This document shows positions 18,900 to 58,032 of a stretch of DNA of 64,000 nucleotides, one piece after another (the first letter of the stretch is position 1; each line of letters begins with the position of its first letter). The position numbers and the translations under genes were made by a program. Below the pieces are notes generated by a model. It worked only from the letters and a program-made list of their open reading frames with translations. It was not told the DNA's origin and ran no database searches. The stretch is from NCBI RefSeq assembly GCF_963676685.1, contig NC_092345.1, forward strand, positions 4,526,001-4,590,000, read 5' to 3'. This DNA is from Mytilus edulis (lineage: Eukaryota).

Positions 18900-20830
18900 T
18901 GCTGTAAGGAAGATATTTATGTGATTCAGCGAAGTTAAGAGCATTTGTCATTTGTGTATTCAAGCTCTTTAAAAACTATTATTTCCAATAATGAGGAAAA
19001 ACGTTAATTTTTTAAGGTAGAATTCGCCAATAAAGGTTTAGATGCGGTAAATATTAGCAATATTTTCCATCAAAAATCTATACAAAAAACCTGATTACTT
19101 CAAAAGTAAAGCTACATCTGTTATTTCTTATACTTACACCAAGTCTATTGAATCCAAGATTTTCAACCACAAGAGAGTTTTAGAGGCCTTTAACCTCAAA
19201 GATACGAAGTCCAAACCTCTGGATTGCTCCTGTGCATCGTCACAATACAATTATAGTCCAGCTGGTCATATTATTACTGGTGACCTTGGCATCGTTACGA
19301 ATGAACAACTAAGAGAGTTATTAGCCAAGGGACCAAAATATAGAATTCTCCAGCCCATCAACTGGAAAAAGAATTTCAAGTTACAGATGGATGCAGTTGA
19401 GGACTAAGCAAGAAAATGGGTAAAGCGCGAACCAGACCTGGACACTTTGTTCTGAATGGATCATGCATTCAGAGGCGCATACAAAAATTACGATGTAATA
19501 TGACTACAAAGGTTACTAGCCCTTTCAAGAATCCAGATGTTGTGGATGCTTTATCCTCTTTGCATGACAACTATGTCGTTGTTCCAGCAGATAAAGCCTC
19601 CAATAATATTGTCTACATATGTAAAAAACATTACTTGCAATGTCTCACAACAGAGGTTGGAAAAAATAAAACTACTGGTAACCCTACATATTCTTTAACA
19701 TCATTTACCAATGACGAAATTTTACAAAATCATAAATCTGTCCTTCTTTCTTTTGATATCAACATCAAAGAAAATGGAGAAAATTTACCTTCATTATACT
19801 GGATACCTAAATTACACAAAACTCCATATAAAGAACGATACATAGATGGGTTGTCAAAATTTTCGACTAAACATCTTTCTTAAGTTCTAACTACTATTCT
19901 TTCTACAGTTAAAGATGGGCTTCAAAAATATTGTGATGAATATATTCTACCAGTGGTGTTAACCAGATGTGGATTCTCAAAAATTCGAAAAATCTACTGC
20001 TTAATCTTCGATCACAATCTATGCAATTTTGCAGCAACATAACGTCTTTTGATTTTTCTACGCTATACACTACTATTACCCATGCTCAGTTGAAAGATCG
20101 ACTTCACCATCTCATATCAAAACAGAGCTTTTTCTATAAAAATGGGAATCGTAGATACTAATTTCTTGTTTTGGGTTACAATAATTCATTTTTTTCTGAA
20201 GAATCACACTGAATCTTCCAGAAAATGTACTGAAAATGATATTATCAAAATGCTGGACTTTTTGATCGACAATATATTTGTTGAATTTGGAGGATTTATA
20301 TTTCAACAGACAGTAGATATTCCAATGGGTACTAATTGTGCACCCCTGCTGGCGGATATGTTTTTGTACTCTTATGAAGCAGAATTCATTCAGAACCTTC
20401 TAAAAGACAAAAAGGAAAGGCACCTTGCTTAATTACTTTCCGATATATTGATGATGTTCTATCTTTGAATAACCCATATTTCAGCCAATACTTACATCTC
20501 ATCTATCCCAGGCCAGCGAACTTGAAATTAAGGATACTACTGATACTATAAGGACTGCTTCATACCTTGATCCTTTTCTCAATATTTACGCAGATGGACG
20601 ACTTCACAGAAAAATCTACGATAAACGGGACGATTTCAACTTCCTAATTATCAATTTCCCATTTCTCAGCAGTAACATACCCTCTGCCCCTTCGTATCGT
20701 GTTTACATATCACAATTGATACGTTATTCTCGTGTTTGTTTACACTATACGGACTTCATATACAGGAGTGTGCTCCTTGCACAGTTAACCAAACTTTTTG
20801 ATGAGATGCGATCAAGACTGTCGACACTAC
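18900..20830 (+). mobile_element. Penelope-like element reverse transcriptase, decayed
   Basis: Frameshifted fragments with VVPADKASNN, LYWIPKLHK, SFDFSTLYT, IPMGTNCAPLLAD, FRYIDD (about 20437) and YDKRDDFNF...SNIP. No GIY-YIG endonuclease was seen. Confidence 0.88.
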
Positions 20831-21253
20831 AGAATAAAACAGAATCTGGCATATGTCTAGTACAAAAATAACAGAAAGAATACCCTTTGCTGGTATCTGG
20901 AGGTTTTCATGTTTGTATACAACTCTAAATATATGTACATCTATTGTTACAACTATAACACATATGAATATAAAGAACGTTATCTGAACACACTTAACCG
21001 CAATATATGTATCCATTTCTTCTAATGGATAATATCCTGAGTATGTAACATTGCAGTAGGTACTATTAGTACTACACACATCCATGGCTACACATGTAAT
21101 GAAGTTATACACACATCTATGTATTATACTTCAAATGTCATGAAAAGAATTAAAAAAAGATTCTGAACTCCAATGTAAATTAAAAAAATCCATAAAAATG
21201 ACTCAATCAAATGTGAGACGTTATCAACCAACGACACAAACGGAAAACAACAA

Positions 21254-21964: not shown

Positions 21965-24900
21965 TTCATTGACTTATTTGACGAATATGAGCAAGTCACA
22001 CAAGGAAGAACCCAGTCTATTAATGGAATTTGAAAGTGAGGACACAGAAAAGGTTGACCGCAAAATAGATCAAAATATAATTTTGAAAAGTGTGGACACA
22101 GAGTTAGGAGAATTTGTACAACCAGAATTAAATATGGATAAGAACTTTGAAACAAATAAAACAGATGAACAGGAAGAACAGAAGACCTATGAGGCGATAG
22201 GCGGAGCTAGACCAAGAAAGTATACCGATAAAGGTAAAAAATTTAGTGAAGAACAAATAACCAAATCCTATGATGGATTGAAAAGATTAAGTGAAAAAAT
22301 AATAAGACTGATTTCTGATAACGAAACATTCGAGACAATAAGATTGCGGTATGGAAATTGGATGCAGTAATATGAACAATTTCAAGTACGAATCAACAGC
22401 GACAACATGGACAAAAGGTTTCAAATGTATGTGATGTGACAAAAAATGCACATACTGAGATGCGCTGTTCCTATTGTGAAGGTACACATGTTTTAGACAA
22501 ATGTAAACGATTTATAGCTCGTCCACGTGAAGACCGAATCGCTTACTTGAAATCTAAGGGATATTGTTTTGGTTGTCTTAAGAAAGGCCATATGAGTAAT
22601 AAATGCAATAGGAGACTCAAATGCTCATGTATTTGGTTATGATGTTATATTTGTTATTCTCGTGGGATTTTGTCTGTTGCTTGGTCCGTTTCTGTGTGTG
22701 TTACATTGTAGTGTTGTGTCGTTGTTCTCCTCTTATATTCAATGTGTTTCCCTAAGTTTTAGTTTGTTACCCCGATTTTGTTTTTTGTCCATGGATTTAT
22801 GAGTTTGAACATCGGTATACTACTATTGCCTTTATTTATTCATATCCAACATATAATTCATTTTGATAAACTGAATGCCCTTGAGCAGGAAGATTACATG
22901 AAAGTTCATACTACAAGAGATACTTTTCTAATGAACAGTCAATTCAAGATACAATAATATCTCAATGCAAATCCAGTGAAAGTGCAGGCAAGTGTTCATG
23001 GGAGATAAGTAAGAAGTGCGGGCAGCTCAGCAGTATCTTCAAAACGACTTGAAGTCGAGGGAAAAAGGATTGAGCTTGAGGCTAAAAGACAAGCAATGAA
23101 ACGTAAGCGAGAACTTGAAATGGCCAAAATGACATTACAGTTAGATGAAGATGATCTTCAAATGCAAACTGATATAGCTGTAGCTGATGCAAAGGCTATC
23201 ATATACGACAAGTTCGAAAAGGGTGAAATTGACCATGTTGAAACTCCGAAAGTAAAATTTGGAAATGTTGAATTGAAATCAAAACCTTTGCAAAGTACAG
23301 TACAGGCAGCTATCGAAACAGCAATTTTAAATCCGATGGCAAAAATATTTCAACCAGTTAAAAAGAAATCAGATATTTTAAAGGAAACAAGTAACTTAGA
23401 TTATGTGAATCTATCGTCCGTCAACATGATCAAAAACACTTCTAAACTTCCGAAACAAAATGTTCATGAATCTTATGGACCAACCCATATCGACAATACA
23501 ACATCTATGCCGATTCAAAGTTTGACGATAAATCCGAACATTTCTGCAGAAACAGCTTTTCAAAGTATGGTCCAACATTTGAGAAAACCTACGCCTGAAA
23601 TAAGGAAATTTAATGGAAACCCATTGGAATATAGGGAGTTTTTAAGACAATTTGAATCAAAGGTTGTTTTGAACTGTGAACAAGATGATGAGAAGATGAA
23701 TTACCTCGAGCAGCTGACATTTGGAGAAGCGCATAAGGTAGTATCTAGTTACAGTCACCTGCCAGGCGATAGAGCATATAAGGCATCAATGCGTCATCTT
23801 GAAGAGCGATATGGTGATACAGACGTGATGGCCTCAGCCTTTATTAAAAAAGCATAGGATTGGCCAAATATTAAATCAGGAGATATTCAATCTTTGGATG
23901 AATTAGCATTGTTTTTGGTTGAATGTCAGTATGGCACGGAGAGTATTGAAGCCGGACGCGTTTTAGAGTACTCTGAAAATATGAAACGTCTGATGTCAAA
24001 ATTGCCCTTCCATATGCATGATCGCTGGAGAAATGTTGTTTTTCGTGTAAAGGATTCACATAGAACAGTTAAATTTAATGACTTTGTGAGCTTTGTAAAA
24101 GCAGAAGCCAAGAAAGCTACAGATCCGACATATGGCAACATCGCCATGAATTATTCAAATTCTAGAAGTACGAATCAACAGCGACAACATGGACAAAAGG
24201 TTTCAAATGGAAAAGAAATGTCCTCTCAAGATTTCTTCAAAACTAAGCAAACTGGATCCATTCGTCGACAAAGATGGATTGCTTAGAGTTGGTGGACGAT
24301 TGGAGCGATCGGATATTTCGTACGAAATAAAACACCCTATCATCTTGCCTAAGGACTTACCGATATCAAGACTTATTATTGAGAACATTCATCGTTCAAT
24401 TGAACATTTAGGAAAAAATTCAATCTTAGCCATTCTTAGACAAAAATATTGGATATTAGGAGCTAATACTATTATTGAAGGCTTAGTGTCTAGATGCGTC
24501 AGATGTAAGAAATATCAAGGAACATGCGCAAAACAGAAAATGGCAAATCTTCCGAAAGAAAGACTTCAGGCTGATGATCCGCCTTTCACAATAATTGGAA
24601 TAGATTTCTTTGGACCCTTTGAGGTAAAGCAAGGAAGGAGTGTAGTTAAAAAATATGGTGTGATTTTCACATGCCTGACTATTAGGGCGATACACCTCGA
24701 ATTGGCATATTCATTAGACACTGACTCTTGCATAAATGCTATAAGGAGATTTATTTCGAGAAGAGGACAGACAATGGAACAAACTTTGTTGGTTCAGAAA
24801 AGGAACTAGGAGAAGAAATAAAAAGATGGAACTTTAATCAAATACAGGAATTCATGATTCAGAAACGCATTCAGTGGGGGTTTAATCCGCCGTCTGCATC

Positions 24901-25586
24901 ACACTTTGGAGGTGTATGGGAACGCCTTATTAGATCAGTGCGTAAGGTATTCTATTCAGTCATGCATGAACAGAACATTCGCCTCACTGATGAAGGACTA
25001 ATGACTCTATTCTGTGAAGTAGAAAGTATTCTTAATGGACGTCCGATCACAGAAGCGTCAGATAGTATTACAGACTTAAATGTATTGACTCCGAATCACT
25101 TGATACTTCAACGTCCGAGTGAAAGCTTTTCACCTGGTGTGTTCTCTAAGACCGACAGCTATGTCAGCGATGGAGACAAATTCAGTATCTCGCTGATCTA
25201 TTTTGGACTTGATGGCGAAAGGAATACTTACCTCTATTGCAGTGCAGAACAAAATGGACAAAACCGACAAGAAATATGCAAGTAGGAGACATAGTTCTCA
25301 TTTCCGAAAATGCACCGAGAAATTCGTGGAACATGGCTCGAGTGGTTGAACTAATCAAAGACAAGGACAATGTTGTTAGAATTGTCAAAGTGAAAACCGC
25401 AAATTCTGTGTTGATGAGACCAATTGCGAAACTGTGCCTTCTTGTAAAAGTTGACTAAAAAAACCACAGCTGCCACCAAACTCGTGTTCATATGATAGAC
25501 ATTTGAAGAACATTTATGATATAATTGTCTTTTGATTTATTCTTGGTAATTGTGTTCTAGATAAGAACCCAATTTAGGGGCTGTTA

Positions 25587-35936: not shown

Positions 35937-36859
35937 CTGAAATTTTAAAAAAATATATAGCTTGATGAATACTCTTTTTATTAACTATCCTCGGTTTAAC
36001 GGTGAGTTTGTGTTATTTTTAACATACAAACATAAACCTACCTATTTTCGCGCAAATTTTATATCGCGTTTAGCCCTTTCTTACCGTGGTTCTCAAATTT
36101 ACTTGTTGTTCATGTAGATAGATAAGGAAAAATCCAAGTTTTCTATGTTCGCGTTCCTGATTTATTCTCGAAATTCGCGAAAATAAAATCGCTCACGAAA
36201 GTAAGTTGGTTTACAGTATTCCAATGTCAGTTCCATAATTAAAAGTATTACTCTGGTCCGATATAGGCTTTCGATTTTTATTTTAAAAACATTTATGACA
36301 AGACAAATCTTCATTTTCATATAGCCAGAAGATTTGACGTATTACTTCGTTTTAACTGAGGCTTTAATTTTTCAAGATAATATGACCTACTATTATAAAA
36401 TACAAAGGGAAAAATCTTAACCAAAGAAAAGAAACACATAGTTCGAAGAACAAACTAAATCGAATGTATTAATCATTCAGAAAACTAAAATAACCGACAA
36501 GGGTTGATATACAATGTTTTGATTACTGTTAGTATTTTAAACTGCTATTCGTTCATCACAAAGGTTCCCATTGCCATTCACAGCGGATATTTTACAAGCC
36601 TAGAACTGCTTAACACTGTCAATACATAAAACGTTTACAATTGTCGTATTCAGAGTAAAATTTTAAAAAATACTGAACTCCGAGGAAAATTCAATCGGAA
36701 AGTCCCTGAAAATGAAATATTTTTGACCATAAGATACGTGCTATGTTCAAATGACACAAAAATAATATAAGGTTTTGATTTTGCAGTTTTACAAGACACT
36801 CTCCGTTATGCCTTTCCCCTCTAGTTTGGTTTATTTTTGTTATTTTACTTCTTACTAAC

Positions 36860-37073
36860 CTTTTCCTTGAATATCTCTGCAGTCCCATTCTCCCTCCGAC
36901 TCACGGGCACACATTTTATGTACCCCAAGGTCTCCAGTAACTCCATTATGTCTGAACTTAGTCCAAGCTGGGTAGAAATACGATACAATACAGAGGACTA
37001 AGCCTCCAAGCGACAGCAGAAAGGCTATGATTCTCAAACACGTAGACGCAGGCTTCTGTGGTAAGCAAACCAT
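36860..37073 (-). CDS. claudin/PMP22-like tetraspan gene A, exon 1
   Basis: ATG at 37073, 214 nt (71 codons plus 1), donor AAG|GTTAGT. TM1 followed by PAW...GVHKMC...C, a variant of the W-GLW-C-C loop signature. Confidence 0.85.
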
Positions 37074-38454: not shown

Positions 38455-38990
38455 TAACATGTTTAACCCCGCTACATTATGTATGCATGTGCCTGTCCCA
38501 AGTCATGAGCTTGATTTCAGTGGTTGTCGTTTGTTTATGTGTTACATATTAGTTTTTCGTTCATTTTTTGTACATAAATTTATTTTTGTTATTTTACTTC
38601 TTACTAACCTTTTCCTTGAATATCTCTGCAGTCCCATTCTCCCTCCGACTCACGGGCACACATTTTATGTACCCCAAGATCTCCAGTAACTCCATTATGT
38701 CTGAACTTAGTCCAAGCTGGGTATAAATACGATACAATACAGAGGACTAAGCCTCCAAGCGATAGCAGAAAGGCTATGATTCTCAAACACGTAGACGCAG
38801 GCTTCTGTGGATCTCGTTTGAATTGTTTTACATTGTCATTTGGGGCCTTTTATAGCTGACTATGCGGTATGGGCTTTGCCCATTGTTGAAGGCCGTACGA
38901 TGACCTATAGTTGTTAATTTCTGTGTCATTTTGGTCTCTTGTGGACAGTTGTCTCATTGGCAATTATACCACATCTTCTTTTTTATATTT
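38455..38990 (-). repeat. interspersed repeat (AAGAAGATGTGGTATAATTGCCAATGAGACAACT family) hosting the exon copy
   Basis: Uninterrupted homologs at about 4690-5000 (opposite strand) and about 46820-47120. Confidence 0.8.
38579..38810 (-). pseudogene. partial copy of gene A exon 1 (no ATG) inserted inside an interspersed repeat
   Basis: 232 bp matching 36830-37061 with 3 substitutions. It keeps the splice donor but lacks the MVCL start codons. Confidence 0.9.
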
Positions 38991-43450: not shown

Positions 43451-44185
43451 TGCTTACTTTGCTTAATCCTGTTGCCCCTTGGTGGAACATAGGCCACTAA
43501 CGAAATTTCTCCACCTTGTTCTGTCTTTTGCTAGCCTCTCCAGACCGTGCCACTTGTACCCTTCTTTCTCCATCTCGGCTGCAACATTCCTTCTCCAGGT
43601 GTATCTTGATCTGCCCCTGCTACGCTTTCCTTGTGGGTTCCACTATAAGGCTTGCCTTGTAATGTTAGTTTTTGGCTTCCTCAGTGTGTCCTATCTATTG
43701 CCATTTTCTCTTTTTAAACTCTTCATCAACTGGGGATTAGTTGGTATTTTCCCAAAGATCTTTGTTTGATATCTTCCCAGGCCTTCTGATATCAAGGATG
43801 CGCCTGAGGCAGTTGTTAATGAAGACTTGAAGTTTATGAAGCAGGTATTTTGCTGTTTTCTAAGTCTCAGCTCTATATAAGAGTATAGTTTTTACGTTTG
43901 AATTGAACAAGCGTATTATGGTCTTAAGCGTGATATTTCGTGCTTTCCAGATTGACCTCATCATGTAAAATGCAGTTCTGGCTTTGCCAATTCTGGTCTT
44001 TACATCTTTATCTGAGCCGCCAGGATTATCCACTTCGCTTCCAAGGTATGTAAAGGATACCACTTCTTCTAATGCTTGGGTGTTAACTATCAGACTTGCT
44101 TGGGACTTTGTGTTTGACTTTATCACTTTGATCTTGTTATGATTGATGGAAAGGCCCGTTTCTGCTGCTCTCTTTTCCATTGATA
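43451..44185 (-). mobile_element. 5'-truncated RTE-clade LINE, 3' end
   Basis: ORF 43860..44180 (GLSINHNKIKV...LEEVVSFTYLGS...RIGKARTAF...IRLFNSNVKTILLY.AET) continues FINNCLRRIL. Short TAAG-like repeated tail. Confidence 0.85.
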
Positions 44186-44219
44186 CTATTGATAATTGAT
44201 TTTTCTTGAAAATAAATTA

Positions 44220-49217: not shown

Positions 49218-50674
49218 TTACATCTTGTTCATTCTAAATTTGGCAGAAACAACTCTTTGATTAATTGTACTTTTTGGTATAGGTTTTTCTGTAATCTTTA
49301 TATTCTCTTTAGCCGTCGAAGTAGTTTCGGACGCTTGCAATAAGTGGTCAAGGCTTAATTCAGTTGATTCAGGCATTGCTCCGGTTTTATACTTTACTAC
49401 AAAGTCTTCGAAGAAATGTGGGAGTTCATCTTTCTTTTTCTTTTTCTTTTTCTTTCTTTTATCATCTTTTCTTTCGTTTTTATCTTCTATTTTCAATTCT
49501 TCACTTTTGAGTATTTCATTAACTTCGAGTTCTTCAGTAATTTTGTCGTATAATTGTCCTTCTAATTCTGAGGTTTTGTGTTCAACAACCGGTGGAGTTT
49601 CTATCCTTTCTTCTTTTTCATTAGTTTGTTCTGTAATTATCTGATCTGTTGTTTCTTCTTTTGCAGCTGTCTTTTTTTTATGATGTTTCTTCTTCTTCTT
49701 TTTAGTGCCAGTTGACTCTATCATATCATCATTCGTTTGTTCTTCTTTTGGATCTACTTGTATTTCGTGTTCTCTGTCATATTCTTGTTCTTCTAACTGT
49801 GATTTTGCTGCATCAACAGTCTTAGGTTTTTCAATATCAGCTTGTTGATCTTTCTCCTGAGATGGCAGTGTTAACAACGACGATTGGTCTGTACTTGTCG
49901 GATCAATGGTTTCTTCTTTTGCATGTTTCTTTGTTTTATGATGTTTCTTCTTCTTCTTCTTTTTCTTTTTGGCGCCGGTTGATTCTGATTCGTTTATATC
50001 TGCAGTATTGTGCATTTCATTTGAAAATTCTTGTTTTTCATCTTGGTTCTTATCTAATATCTTATTATTGGAATCGTCTTGAGTACCAGATATATCGATA
50101 TCCGTATCACGTATTTCATTTGTTTCTTGATCCATCACATCTGGTTTATTTTCGAAATCATTTTTTTCTGTTAATGTTTGTAAAGCAATTACTTCAGGAT
50201 AAAATAATAGCAATTTATCTGGAGCGTCTCTGCTGTCTTCATTATTTGTTTTATTATTATCTTGTTCTATTACCTTGTCTTCTTTCTTTTCTATTTCTAT
50301 TACTGTGTTCTTGTTTTTGATCATATCAAGAAGTGTTGATGAACGTTTTGTAGACTGTTTAGATGTAGAGGGTCTAGGTTTATTATACACTTTCATTATT
50401 TGCGAGTGGTAGGTCGGACAACGTTCCAAAATAAATGTAGTTTCTGGTGCTAAACCGGGAAGAATCGGTTCTGTTCTGTCCCAACGCTTTTGACGTTTGT
50501 CACGTGGTTTGTCTAGTTGTTTTGTTGTTGTAATACCATCGATTATGTAAAACGGAGTTAATATGATGGCGATTACATCTGCTACAAGTCCTAGGTATGC
50601 ACTATAGCTCAATTTACTTTCTTCGAATGTGTCACTTTGTAACATTGTTAGTGTTGCCATGGCAATAAAAATAC
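49218..50674 (-). CDS. claudin/PMP22-like gene C, exon 3 (TM4 plus long charged, poly-Lys tail); protein 603 aa
   Basis: Acceptor ttccag, in frame with ORF 49218..50660. TM4 ends ILTPFYIID. Total CDS 1812 nt. Confidence 0.88.
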
Positions 50675-52366
50675 CTGGAAAGAAAATAATTGAAAATTAC
50701 ATTAAAAGAGGGACAAAAGATACCAGAGGGAAAGTCAAATTCATAGATCGAAAATAAAGTGACAGCGCCATGGCTAAAAATGAAAAACAAAAACAAACAA
50801 ATAATAGTACACAAGACACAACATAGAAAACTAAAGACTGAGTAACACGAACTCCACCGAAAACTGGGGATGATCTAATGTGCTCCGGAAGGGTAGGCAG
50901 ATGCTGCTACAATTATTATAATTGTTATTCAAATATATAATAGTCACTTTAAAATTAAGTGATAACATTGTTTTGAGATTTGAATAAAAAATAAAGCATT
51001 CGTGGTGTTACAAGATCTTATATGCCAAAACAATATAACAAAAAAAACGAGCTCTGAGGAAAATTATAGACGGAACGTCGCTAAGCAAATGGCAAAATAA
51101 AAAGCTTAAACAAATCAAACAAATTAATGAATATTGTCATATTCCTGAATTGGTACAGGCATTTTCATATGTATAAAAAAAGGTACAAAATGTGAAAATA
51201 GGGGTACAGCAGTCAACATTGTGTTATAATCTAAATCACTTTAAAACAAGTAAATATGTAAACAAATATAAACAAAAAGGCGTTCATTATCACTGAACTA
51301 TTATATATATTTGTTTAGGGGCCGGGCGCACTACGTTTGCGCGCATTTGGGGATTAAAATGTTTTACGTTTGCGCGCAGCTTTCGATTACATTTGCGCGC
51401 ATTCATTTTACAGGTAAACTCAGGTAAAAATATAAATAAAGATTAAATCAAATTGTAATTGACTATATATTATTTTTATTTTCATAATAAATATGACTAT
51501 CAATTATTAATTTTGAAAACATTTCCTAAGTCAAATTATATATTGTTCATTGTGAATATTTCAGGATGAAAAGTGATTCAACTTTTAGTGTTCGTTTTTA
51601 AAATGAGTAAAGTTAATACTTAGTAATTCAAATTAGTTTGTGAAGTTACACAAAGGTACAAACATGGAGTTTCGGCACGTACCGACATGTAAAGTAATGA
51701 ATTTATCAATACTTTTAACTTTATTAAAGATAACAGCTATGTTTTAACATTTTAACATTTTCATATGTATATATTTCTAGGATTTAGTGCTTGTGCATAA
51801 TAAAACGGACTTATCTTGCTCGAAATCCCACTTCAATCTCATCCGAAGGACGCCTCCGGGTACGGGAATTTCTCGCTGCATTGAAGACCTGTTGGTGACC
51901 TTCTGCTGTTGTCTTCTCTATGGTCGGGTTGTTGTCTCTTTGACACATTCCCCATTTCCATTCTCAATTTTATATAGACAAAGCAAATTAGCAACTATAG
52001 CACAATAATCGGATGTATAAGTACTGAGACACGTCAAATGCATATAGCTCAAAATAGACTTAACAGTAAAAATGATAGTTTGCAAAGACGAATAAATTAA
52101 CACTATAACACGTTATTTTAAAAGATGATAAACAACGTCAGTATATAGAATCTATACTTCAAGACCATCGTGTATTATTTGTGAAAGTGATACAGAGTAT
52201 TTATCAACAAGGTTTTGGTACCTTCCGATGAACTTTGTTTTTGTATACAATTGTCACGAAGTTCCTTTCTCGTTTGTATTCAAACTCTTCAATTCTCGAA
52301 ATGTAATATTTTATGCAGAAGAATCAAAGACTGAAAATAGTTTTGTACAGGATATTCATTTACATA

Positions 52367-53399
52367 TGTAGGACTCAAATATATGGCGGGTTCCAAATCT
52401 ATGGCAGATTCCTAATCTATGGCAAATGTGACGTTTCAAACGCCAAGCAACTCAAATCTATGGCAGATTTTTGTTTTCCCCGAATCTATGGCAGATTTAG
52501 GAATTGCGTAATTTTCCGGGAAAAAGAGTAGAATATAACGTCACAATAAAAATAACGCCATATAAGTCGTTGCCGACTTCAGTAAAGTTGTCTCAAGTCA
52601 TCAATGGGGTTGAAGTCATAAAACTTTGCTCAGTGCTCGGAGCACAAAAATCATGCTCGAAACATGAAATCCAGCATTTTGATTGGTTGATTTTGGAGTA
52701 TGAGTACAAAAACTGACTCGAAAGTTTTATGACTTCGTCTTCTGAAATCATGTGTTTAAAATATTTTAACTCAGGAAAACACTTTCCGTTTCCCCTTTAG
52801 ATATTTTGGGAATGGAGTTATAGTACATATTTTAGCGTCTACGTCTGTCAAAGTATTTAAAGTGAGAAAATGAAATTATAGGATACCACCTTGACTCAAA
52901 TCGTCACCAGTTAAAAAAGATCGATTAACGCTAAAATAAATATTATATGTGAAAACTGTTTAAATTCTTTTTGATTAATGGATTTCCATTTTGTAGTTGT
53001 TTTATTTAATGAATTAAACAGGTACAATGCACAGATTAAAAATGCTTATTTTTCCGGGAAAGATCATTTTAGCCTGATTTCTGTATTATGGTATATCACT
53101 TCTACACTCTTTTATGGTTGATTTGGTTCACCATAATGATTATGGAATTTTTGTTTCACAAATGTTTATAGACATGCTCCCGTCGTTTCAACTCAAATAA
53201 GACAAGTCAGTGATTGTATATGAACTGCCTTGTTAAACATTTGCACAAAATCTGCCATAGATTTGGAAGCAACAAAAATCCGCCATAGATTAGGAAATTA
53301 CAAAACTAGCAGGGTTTTAAAAAATCCGCCATAGATTTGGGATGGCATGACGTCATATTTACCATAGATTCGGAACTCACCATAGATTTGAGTCCCACA
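52367..53399. mobile_element. 1-kb inverted-repeat element with subterminal AATCTATGGCAGATT repeats and TA flanks
   Basis: Ends TGTAGGACTCAAAT and ATTTGAGTCCCACA. About five aatctatgg copies on the left and five ccatagatt copies on the right. Confidence 0.85.
52606..52742. mobile_element. small MITE nested in the 52367-53399 element
   Basis: Perfect 16-bp inverted repeat GAAGTCATAAAACTTT / AAAGTTTTATGACTTC (52612 to 52736). Confidence 0.7.
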
Positions 53400-54159
53400 T
53401 ATATGTGTAAGATATTTACATAATAATGTTGTCTTTGGCATTGTCAGTGTGAAAAAAAGCTAAGGTTCATACAGATATATAATGTACGAAATGAACTTTT
53501 GCAATATAATATGTCAAGCCATGAATTTTACACCGTCTTGAATTCACTTTTAAATTGAACTTTAGTTTTGGAAATAAATTTATCGTAGCTACTAGACTTA
53601 AAATCGCCAGAATAAAAAAAAAGTTGAAATGACTTATAAAGCAAGAAGTTGAAGAGCATTAATGTGATTGTCCCTAAATTGGCAGATATTGCATTTCTTT
53701 TATTTCATTCTATAAATAATAGGCGTAACTAAGGTTTTAAGATAAACAATGCTAATATCCTTTATGTCATAAGTTACAAAAAAATGACAAAAGAAATACC
53801 TGTGTCATTCAAATTTTGATGTGAAAAGATTATTATTCAATACATGGACTAATATACAAACAAAAACAAACACAAATGGCTATTTCAGTGTTTTTGTTTT
53901 TTGTTATACTGCCTTTTTACTGCACGGGTACATTTATGGGACAATGTTAAGAATTTCGAAGGCTTTGTATAAGTAGTTTAACACTGATCATTGTAATTAG
54001 ATGTTATTCAGTAGAGTAAACTCACTCGGAGTTCCTCCGAGTTCTGTATTTTTGTGTTTTTACTTTTTTTTCACAATATATTTGCATGCTATATGTATTC
54101 AGAACCTAGCATATGCATATTAAAATTAATATTAATTGTCATCTCCATTCTCTATATAT

Positions 54160-55538
54160 ATACTGTGATACCAGATGCTAGATGTCTTGATACCAGATGC
54201 AAGTTTACAATACCTTCTGTTAGTGTCGTGATACTTGATGCTAATATACACTACTCACTGATAACGCCGTGATACCAGATGATCATTTACAGTACCTGCC
54301 GCTAACGCCACGCTTCCTGATGCACATTTATTGAACCTTCTTATGTTAATACCACGATGCCTGATTCAAGTTAACAGTACTTGTTGCTGGTGGCGTGATA
54401 TCAGATGCAATTTTTTTCAGTTCCTGATGTTAATGCCGTGATACCTGGTGCTTATTTACAGAAACCTTGCCAACGCCGTTTTACCAGATGGAAGCTTACA
54501 GTACCTGACGCTAACGCCATGATACCTGATGTAAGCTTACAGTATCTGCCGCTAACGCCATGATACCTGATGTATATGCCAGCTAACGCCATGATACCTG
54601 ATGCACATTTACAGTACCGGCTGCTAACGCCATCATACTTGATTCAAGTTTACAGTACCGGCTACTAAAACCATATTACCAGACGCAGGTTTACAATACT
54701 TCTGTTAATGCTGTGATACCTGGTGCAATGTTGCAGTACATACTACCGGTGCCATGAAATCCGATGAAAGTCTGTAGTACCGGTGGCTTACGTATTGATA
54801 CCTGATGCCAGTTTACAGTAACGGCCGCTAAAGCCATGCTACATCATGCAAGTTTACATTACCGGAGCTACTAACGCAATGATACCTGATGCCAGTTTAC
54901 AGTAACGGCCACTAAAGCCATGCTACATCATGCAAGTTTACATTACCGGAGCTACTAACGCAATGATACCTGATGCCAGTTTACAGTAACGGCTGCTAAA
55001 ACCATGCTACATCATGCAAGTTTACATTACCGGAGCTACTAACGCAATGATACCTGATGCCAGTTTACAGTACCGGCTGCTCAAGACATGATACCTGATG
55101 CAAGTATACAATACCTGCCGCTATCGTCATATTTCCTGATGCAAATTAACAGGACCGGTTGCAAAAGCCATGCATGATGGCTGATTAAAGTTTACATTAC
55201 CGGTTACTATAACATATTACTAGGTGCCAGTTTACAATACTTCTGTTAGTGCTGTGATACCTGATGTAATGTCACAGTACAGACTACTGGCGCCATGATA
55301 TCCGATGAAAGTGTACAATACAGACTGTTTATGCTGTGATACCAGTATGATATATCATTACCTACCAATAACGCCTTAAAACAAATGTAAGTTTACATCA
55401 ATTGTCGCTAACGTTGTGATACTAGCTGTTCATTCCGGGATACCAAATTTTAAAATATAGTACATGCCGCTAACGCCGAGATACCAGATATCAGATTATA
55501 TTACCTGCCGCTAACGCCGTGATGCCAGCTGTAAGTTT
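54160..55538 (-). repeat. diverged 41-bp minisatellite derived from the gene C exon 2 / intron 2 junction
   Basis: Plus-strand unit TACAGTACCTGCCGCTAACGCCATGATACCTGATGTAAGCT, with period 41 (e.g. 54497 to 54538, 54610 to 54651). It aligns to 55498-55538. About 30 copies, with an 84-bp higher-order unit at 54796/54880/54964/55048. Confidence 0.9.
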
Positions 55539-55660
55539 GATTCCTTTCAGTTTCTTCCAATGTTTGGTCCACATGAACGTCAATGTGGCGGAAACTCCAT
55601 ATGCAGTGTACATAGCAAATCCCAGTGATCCCAAAACTTGGGACATCTTGAAGAGGGAAT
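55505..55660 (-). CDS. claudin/PMP22-like gene C, exon 2
   Basis: Acceptor tcttag, donor CAG|GTAAT. 156 nt (same length as in gene B). DSLFKMSQVLGSLGFAMYTAYGVSATLTFMWTKHWKKLKGIKLTAGITALAA. Confidence 0.88.
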
Positions 55661-57833: not shown

Positions 57834-58032
57834 CTTTCTTAACATCAGTAGTGCAGTCATTCTCTACGCATGTCAGGAAAAATCCAGCATTATATGTTAC
57901 TGTGTCAAATGTATATGTTATCCATGATGGCGTCACAAATCCAACAAAATATAGAAAACATCCAATATACGTGATGAATAATGCTGCCAATCTTGTCCGT
58001 GTTGTAAATAAACTAGACGTCTTGCAAGCCAT
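57834..58032 (-). CDS. claudin/PMP22-like tetraspan gene C, exon 1
   Basis: ATG at 58032, 199 nt (same length as in gene B), donor AAG|GTTTGC. Contains PSWITYTFD...AGFFLTCVENDC. Confidence 0.88.

What the first reader, a model, noticed from the sequence alone, without database searches (positions are those of the whole stretch)
54160..55538. A 1.3-kb satellite born from a coding exon's 3' end and its splice donor
Seen: in gene sense, the 41-bp unit AAACTTACATCAGGTATCATGGCGTTAGCGGCAG|GTACTGT corresponds to the last 34 nt of gene C exon 2 (AAACTTACAGCTGGCATCACGGCGTTAGCGGCAG) plus the first 7 intron nt (GTAATAT). About 30 diverged copies start right at the donor. Because 41 is not a multiple of 3 and a stop lies at 55491, the array is not a coding extension. 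Many units keep CAG|GTAC and also an internal CAG|GTATC, giving dozens of donor-like sites. No such array follows exon 2 in paralogs A or B. Inference: a visible de novo satellite birth that may act as decoy or recursive splice sites, or route transcripts to nonsense-mediated decay.
Basis: partly seen in the sequence, partly recalled or inferred. Interest (0 to 1): 0.75.

Follow-up and report, generated by a model that had tools for sequence, protein, structure and literature searches.

The report
Old splice-donor minisatellite in mussel gene
The end of one exon of a mussel membrane-protein gene, splice signal included, is repeated 33 more times in the next intron; the messenger RNA examined uses only the first signal, so this is likely an old, mostly neutral example of a repeat type already known from human and lancelet genes, although one automated gene model hints that a later copy may sometimes be used.

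Summary
Real, but a known kind. A 41-bp unit (34 nt of exon 2 plus 7 intron nt) of a Mytilus edulis claudin-like gene is followed by 33 decayed copies; no second copy was found in the genome. Local origin from the exon is supported: paralogs and an array-free relative share the exon end and donor. It is not a recent birth: copies are 66% alike, and the consensus keeps two residues (A-S) seen in a related mussel protein. The donor claim is overstated: 2 of 33 copies keep CAG|GTAC and no copy matches U1 as well as the true donor. RNA contigs of three studies use only the first donor. This is a 'mirage' minisatellite (lancelet globins; human F7). Such arrays are common here: 7 of 184 control exon ends, and a paralog has independent arrays on both sides of the same exon. 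The scan has noted this kind before in this and other genomes. One open lead: RefSeq M. galloprovincialis isoform X2 begins with an array-type ATG unit joined to exon 3, either real use of a downstream copy or read mis-mapping.

The parts
57834..58032 (-). Gene C exon 1, coding part (claudin/PMP22-like N-terminus)
   Evidence: RNA joint 55660/57834 in X17 and X19; matches P0001; Pfam PF00822 E 0.024, below cut-off
55505..55660 (-). Gene C exon 2
   Evidence: RNA contigs X17, X19, X15; RefSeq XP_071153983.1 = P0001
55498..55538 (-). Founding unit: last 34 nt of exon 2 plus first 7 nt of intron 2
   Evidence: 33 of 41 to the array consensus
55503..55504 (-). Authentic donor GT (CAG|GTAATA, 7 of 9 U1 matches, the best in the array)
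54167..55497 (-). 33 decayed intronic copies of the 41-bp unit (mean pairwise identity 66%)
55491..55493 (-). In-frame TGA in copy 1: any extension of exon 2 into the array ends here
54815..55066 (-). Young higher-order repeat: copies 12-17 as three 84-bp dimers, 93-100% alike
   Evidence: UFBoot 95-98
55149..55314 (-). Copies 6-9, duplicated as a block with copies 19-22 (54611-54773)
   Evidence: identities 0.80-0.90; UFBoot 99, 93, 98 for pairs 6/19, 7/20, 8/21
54289..54651 (-). Distal copies 22, 24, 25 and 30, each at most one base from an ATG-to-donor unit reading MALAAG: candidates for the first coding exon of RefSeq isoform X2 of M. galloprovincialis
   Evidence: candidate only, no junction seen or 21
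49221..50674 (-). Gene C exon 3 (last membrane helices and long charged tail); acceptor at 50674

Best explanation
The array is a tandem amplification of the exon-2 end and splice donor of a Mytilus claudin-like gene (a 'mirage' minisatellite), likely old and likely neutral, and the spliced RNA seen uses the first donor. Shown: the unit structure, its uniqueness in the searches run, the older age of the exon end, first-donor splicing in three RNA studies, internal block duplications, and independent arrays of the same build at other exon ends of this genome. Inferred: a 41-bp duplication across the boundary was tolerated because the first copy leaves exon and donor intact; slippage or unequal exchange then expanded it; point mutation eroded the copies; the first donor wins by position and by being the strongest, as in human F7.
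For: Exon end and phase-1 donor are shared by 6 of 6 paralogous exon-2 loci and by relative L015, which has no array there. One genome match for the array; 6 of 6 pattern matches lie inside it. Copies are 66% alike pairwise, 79% to consensus, against about 1% or less between haplotypes over long contigs (X4 2 in 782, X9 5 in 607). The -2 A of the copied donor is the least conserved column (15 of 33). X17 and X19 show joint 55504-50674; X15 shows the same as a loose end; in X17 and X19 the depth of bin 55220-55520 is fully explained by the spliced contig. 7 of 184 presumed splice ends of P450 and kinase exons carry straddling arrays; paralog L009 has a 47-bp x21 donor array and a 92-bp x5 acceptor array. 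F7: only the first donor is used (PMC1557585); lancelet mirages do not disturb splicing (PMC3087553).
Against: RefSeq isoform X2 of M. galloprovincialis (XP_076091563.1, P0014; 1 of 7 members of its cluster) starts MALAAG where exon 2 reads T at that place, which points to a copy's ATG and donor. RNA evidence is contigs only, which drop rare forms; the one raw-read run did not express exon 2, and 53 joints and 93 loose ends were not shown. The array has persisted and holds 18.6 weak donor-like sites per kb against 3.4 in the rest of the intron. Neutrality itself was not tested.
Confidence: 0.75

Rival explanations
1. A distal copy has been partly exonised: it supplies an ATG and a working donor, giving a 490-aa isoform without the N-terminal membrane helices but with the last helices and the charged tail (either from an intronic start or from a long extension of exon 2).
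For: P0014 is identical to P0013 over its last 489 residues and begins with M where exon 2 has T; copies 24, 25 and 30 are one base from that unit and copy 22 already reads MMALAAG up to a GT; it keeps two hydrophobic stretches (1-19, 26-54). Ebner et al. propose this route for mirages (PMC3087553); proximal copies are used in human 6-16 and CBS (as cited in PMC1557585). That RefSeq alternative isoforms need RNA support is recalled, not checked.
Against: One automated model. The last 14 nt of such a copy equal the true exon end, so short junction overhangs can be mis-mapped. No junction contig from the array in X15, X17, X19; an X17 contig runs through the copy-30 donor unbroken (53799-54461). 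No such isoform among the M. edulis or M. trossulus records returned. I could not see the X2 mRNA or the M. galloprovincialis DNA; a start at the exon's ACG is a further, less likely reading.
Confidence: 0.15
2. The array is a regulator: copies act as decoy donors that send a share of transcripts, all carrying the stop at 55491, to nonsense-mediated decay, or act as recursive splice sites.
For: In-frame stop in copy 1 and 25 weak donor-like sites; NMD-bound RNA would be rare in contigs, so its absence is weak evidence.
Against: No site equals the true donor; donor columns are not better kept than others; best upstream pyrimidine count is 10 of 15 against 12 and 13 at the two real acceptors (read from the sequence); F7 pseudo-sites stay silent even when strengthened.
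Confidence: 0.07
3. Reverse direction: an intronic or dispersed satellite came first and one unit replaced the exon end.
For: The tree cannot place the root among the copies (support under 65 around the exon copy); the consensus matches a relative's residues better than this exon's.
Against: Array-free relative L015 matches the exon unit at 30 of 41 and paralog B at 26 of 41 with the same donor; no second locus in the genome.
Confidence: 0.03

Closest known systems
'Mirage' minisatellites of amphioxus (globins BflGb6, BflGb9, PMC3087553; Adh3 and TnC as cited there and in PMC3902484)
   Same: Tandem copies spanning an exon-intron boundary, some keeping AG/GT, diverged copies with concerted turnover inside the cluster, normal splicing kept; both donor and acceptor sides can be amplified (as in paralog L009).
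   Different: Mollusc, not cephalochordate; more copies (33) and more decayed (66%) than BflGb6 (3-6 units, 81-100%); a RefSeq model hints at use of a distal copy.
Human F7 intron 7 37-bp VNTR (PMC1557585)
   Same: First unit spans the exon end and donor; downstream pseudo-donors; first donor used.
   Different: F7 unit has 4 exonic nt and 5-9 identical copies; here 34 exonic nt and 33 decayed copies that are all weaker than the true donor.
Human 6-16 (IFI6) intron 2 and CBS intron 13 minisatellites (known to me only as cited in PMC1557585)
   Same: Donor-containing minisatellite in which some pseudo-donors are used.
   Different: There the two nearest copies are used; here the only hint concerns a distal copy about 0.9-1.2 kb in, with its own ATG.
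Intron gain by tandem duplication of an AG|GT unit (Rogers model, as described in PMC3087553; human cases in PMC2812944)
   Same: Unit contains CAG|GT.
   Different: No intron was gained: this intron position is shared by paralogs and by array-free L015, and the acceptor lies 3.5 kb beyond the array.

Membership tests
Mirage / F7-type boundary minisatellite | Head-to-tail repeats whose terminal unit spans an exon-intron boundary | tested here: met
   boundary confirmed by RNA joints
Mirage / F7-type boundary minisatellite | Splice signal reiterated in at least some intronic copies | tested here: met
   GT kept in 25 of 33, AG|GT in 7 of 33
Mirage / F7-type boundary minisatellite | Regular splicing at the authentic site is kept | tested here: met
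   3 of 5 RNA runs laid covered exon 2 and all 3 use the first donor; contigs only
Mirage / F7-type boundary minisatellite | Length instability between alleles | tested here: inconclusive
   X9 shows an 82-nt skip and a 35-nt back-jump inside the array; small indels in X4, X7, X9, X15; short-read contigs collapse the 84-bp part
Dispersed satellite or transposon-derived repeat | Copies at other loci of the genome | tested here: not met
   the DNA search skips very common words, the 22-nt pattern search had 6 of 6 hits in the array
Intron gain by tandem duplication | New intron bounded by first and last copies, absent in relatives | tested here: not met
   intron shared with paralogs and L015; acceptor at 50674
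Recursive splice sites | AG|GT preceded by a pyrimidine tract | tested here: not met
   best 10 of 15 pyrimidines before any YAG in the array
Recursive splice sites | Intermediate junction reads or saw-tooth nascent RNA | not testable with these tools
   no raw reads expressing the gene
PMP22/claudin family (host gene) | Pfam PF00822 match over the curated cut-off | tested here: not met
   E 0.0096, 16.3 bits against 26.7, over residues 15-156: claudin-like, not filed as a member

The most novel reading that the evidence does not exclude
A decayed mirage copy has become a working first coding exon: its ATG and donor splice to exon 3 and make a short, tail-bearing isoform in Mytilus, the exonisation step that was only proposed for lancelet mirages; and such arrays gather at splice sites in mussel genomes above the intronic rate (7 seen, 2.7 expected), making them a standing source of new exon ends.
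Probability: 0.15. Interest if true: 0.6.

Novelty: new member of a known kind. Interest (0 to 1): 0.3.

Why it matters
As it stands it is one more mirage, useful as a dated example: the copies seem to preserve an earlier state of the exon end, and the same exon has been amplified independently in a paralog. It would matter more if the RefSeq isoform is real, since that would be a caught case of a boundary repeat turning into a coding exon. It also warns that gene models and junction counts near such arrays can be mapping artefacts; about 4% of sampled exon ends in this genome carry one.

Tried and rejected
Raw-read run X24 and run X20 did not cover exon 2, so they say nothing on donor choice. 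A search for short proteins like the start of P0014 gave 6 candidates and none scored: no independent support for the isoform, and no evidence against it. The first tree had paralog B one base out of register and was discarded; the redone tree resolves only recent duplications, not the root. An apparent share of the exon's present codons by copy 3 is better read as a deletion between the two GGTA words of the unit (my reading), so I do not use it for dating. The consensus is not a clean ancestor: of 8 differences from the exon it agrees with L015 at 3, the exon agrees with L015 at 3, neither at 2, and the ATG may be CpG decay. The metagenome scan gave 1 relative among 359 stretches; DNA of P0004's organism was not obtainable, so the presence of the array there is a prediction. 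Enrichment at splice sites depends on the null: 7 of 184 against 2.7 expected for terminal units (Poisson p 0.02) but below 10.5 expected from plain repeat coverage; I do not claim it. No fold or complex was run: they do not bear on the finding.

Full report
Observation. On the minus strand, gene C has three exons (58032-57834, 55660-55505, 50674-49221) and encodes a protein identical over the searched part to RefSeq XP_071153983.1 of Mytilus edulis. It is claudin/PMP22-like (PF00822 E 0.0096, below the cut-off) with a long charged tail. A wrap-around alignment splits 55538-54167 into 34 units of about 41 bp: the first is 34 nt of exon 2 plus 7 intron nt, the other 33 are intronic. The consensus of the copies matches the exon unit at 33 of 41, against 22 for the best unrelated place in the window. 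The stop at 55493-55491 is in frame. Paralogs A and B have no array there.

Origin and direction. The array has one match in the 1.37-Gb genome and all 6 matches of a 22-nt pattern with up to 2 mismatches lie inside it; the DNA search skips very common words, so this is strong but not complete. The exon end and its phase-1 donor are present in all 6 paralogous exon-2 loci and in an unnamed relative, L015, which has no repeat after the donor. So the exon came first. A tree of the 41 columns does not place the root.

Age and growth. Copies are 66% alike pairwise and 79% to their consensus, while DNA runs of three labelled organisms all carry the array with about 1% or fewer differences on their long contigs. 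Copies 6-9 and 19-22 are a block duplication and copies 12-17 a young 84-bp dimer. The consensus reads A-S where the M. edulis, M. trossulus and M. galloprovincialis proteins read T-A; the more distant mussel proteins P0004, P0018 and P0019 read A-S. The simplest inference is that the array was founded before that lineage split. Against a clean story, consensus and exon are equally close to L015 (30 of 41 each). This is an old array with one young patch, not a fresh birth.

Splicing. CAG|GTAC survives in 2 of 33 copies, AG|GT in 7, the internal CAG|GTATC in 11; 25 sites reach 6 of 9 U1 matches by simple counting, none reaches the true donor's 7. Of 5 RNA runs laid, 3 covered exon 2: X17 and X19 join 55504 to 50674 and X15 shows the same join as a loose end. 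The listed contigs inside the array are wholly intronic and at low depth. These are assembled contigs, which drop rare forms, and part of the joint and loose-end tables was not shown, so minor use is not excluded.

The one contrary lead. Among 7 members of the protein's cluster, RefSeq isoform X2 of M. galloprovincialis (P0014, 490 aa) equals isoform X1 over its last 489 residues and starts MALAAG, with M where exon 2 has T. Copies 24, 25 and 30 are one base from such a unit with a GT, and copy 22 reads MMALAAG to a GT in this haplotype. Either a distal copy works as donor and start, or short junction overhangs were mapped to a copy whose last 14 nt equal the exon end. I could not see the mRNA model or its reads; a search for matching short proteins found none.

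How common. Paralog L009 on another contig has, at the same exon, a 47-bp donor array of 21 copies at 96% with 21 CAG|GTAAG sites and a 92-bp acceptor array of 5 copies; unit lengths and sequences differ from gene C's, so they arose independently. As a control I took 110 P450 and kinase exon hits (70 of 93 P450 matches, 40 of 137 kinase matches, picked for short exons), giving 184 presumed splice ends defined by profile coverage, not by RNA: 7 carry a straddling array and 1 more starts flush at the GT. Left out of that count: 30 mostly intronless or tandemly repeated kinase loci and 30 weak Claudin_2 loci, none of which showed such an array, and 9 family loci. Expected 2.7 by a terminal-unit null (p 0.02), 10.5 by coverage: common, enrichment unproven.

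What is known. PMC1557585 (read: abstract, Introduction, Discussion) describes the F7 VNTR and lists 6-16, CBS, LAMIN B2 and PDGF; only the first donor is used in F7. PMC3087553 (passages) names lancelet cases 'mirages', reports normal splicing and proposes exonisation of a copy. PMC3902484 and PMC2812944 (passages) add lancelet PGBD5 and human duplicated genes. Other papers were seen as search listings only. Five searches (one search listed 20 of 74) showed no paper on such arrays in Mytilus, but the library lacks most subscription journals and I opened no supplements. The scan's own notes list 25 findings of this kind in at least 13 genomes and several in this genome; the word 'mirage' came from there and I checked it in the paper.

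Verdict. A real, locally born, old boundary minisatellite of a known kind, most likely neutral (0.75), with a 0.15 chance that a distal copy has become a working exon. Interest 0.3.

Noticed in passing
L009 (G000:C1:943503-946637): A paralog whose exon 2 is flanked by two young independent arrays: 92-bp x5 copying the acceptor and 47-bp x21 copying the donor, with 21 CAG|GTAAG sites; a sharper test of first-donor choice than gene C. Its expression was not checked.
   Followed up: partly
P0014 (XP_076091563.1), candidates window 54289-54651: RefSeq isoform X2 of M. galloprovincialis begins with an array-type unit joined to exon 3.
   Followed up: partly
L035, L042, L057, L063, L070, L163, L177, L086: Boundary-spanning tandem repeats at P450 and kinase exon ends (4 acceptor, 3 donor, 1 flush with the GT).
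   Followed up: partly
window 36829-37060 and 38578-38809: Exon 1 of paralog A is present twice, 232 bp at 98.7% identity, 1.75 kb apart.
   Followed up: no
window 55491-55633: Run X9 holds a second exon-2 allele with 10 differences in 143 nt, 8 synonymous and 2 giving A-to-V and M-to-I as in the M. trossulus protein, far more than in the neighbouring array.
   Followed up: partly
window 49221-50674: The 603-aa form lacks a block of about 55 residues that P0002-P0005 have in the tail; an X19 contig carries extra letters at 49776-49778, so the tail length looks polymorphic.
   Followed up: no
window 19051-20868, 22000-25300, 43863-44216: Broken reading frames that look like retroelement remnants (reverse-transcriptase-like and integrase-like by recalled motifs), not tested.
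   Followed up: no
window 50700-52800 and 54032-54073: High-copy dispersed repeats in intron 2, one 40-nt piece just beyond the array's far end.
   Followed up: no
P0005 (XP_052093051.1): The M. californianus RefSeq model starts in exon 3 and lacks exons 1-2.
   Followed up: no
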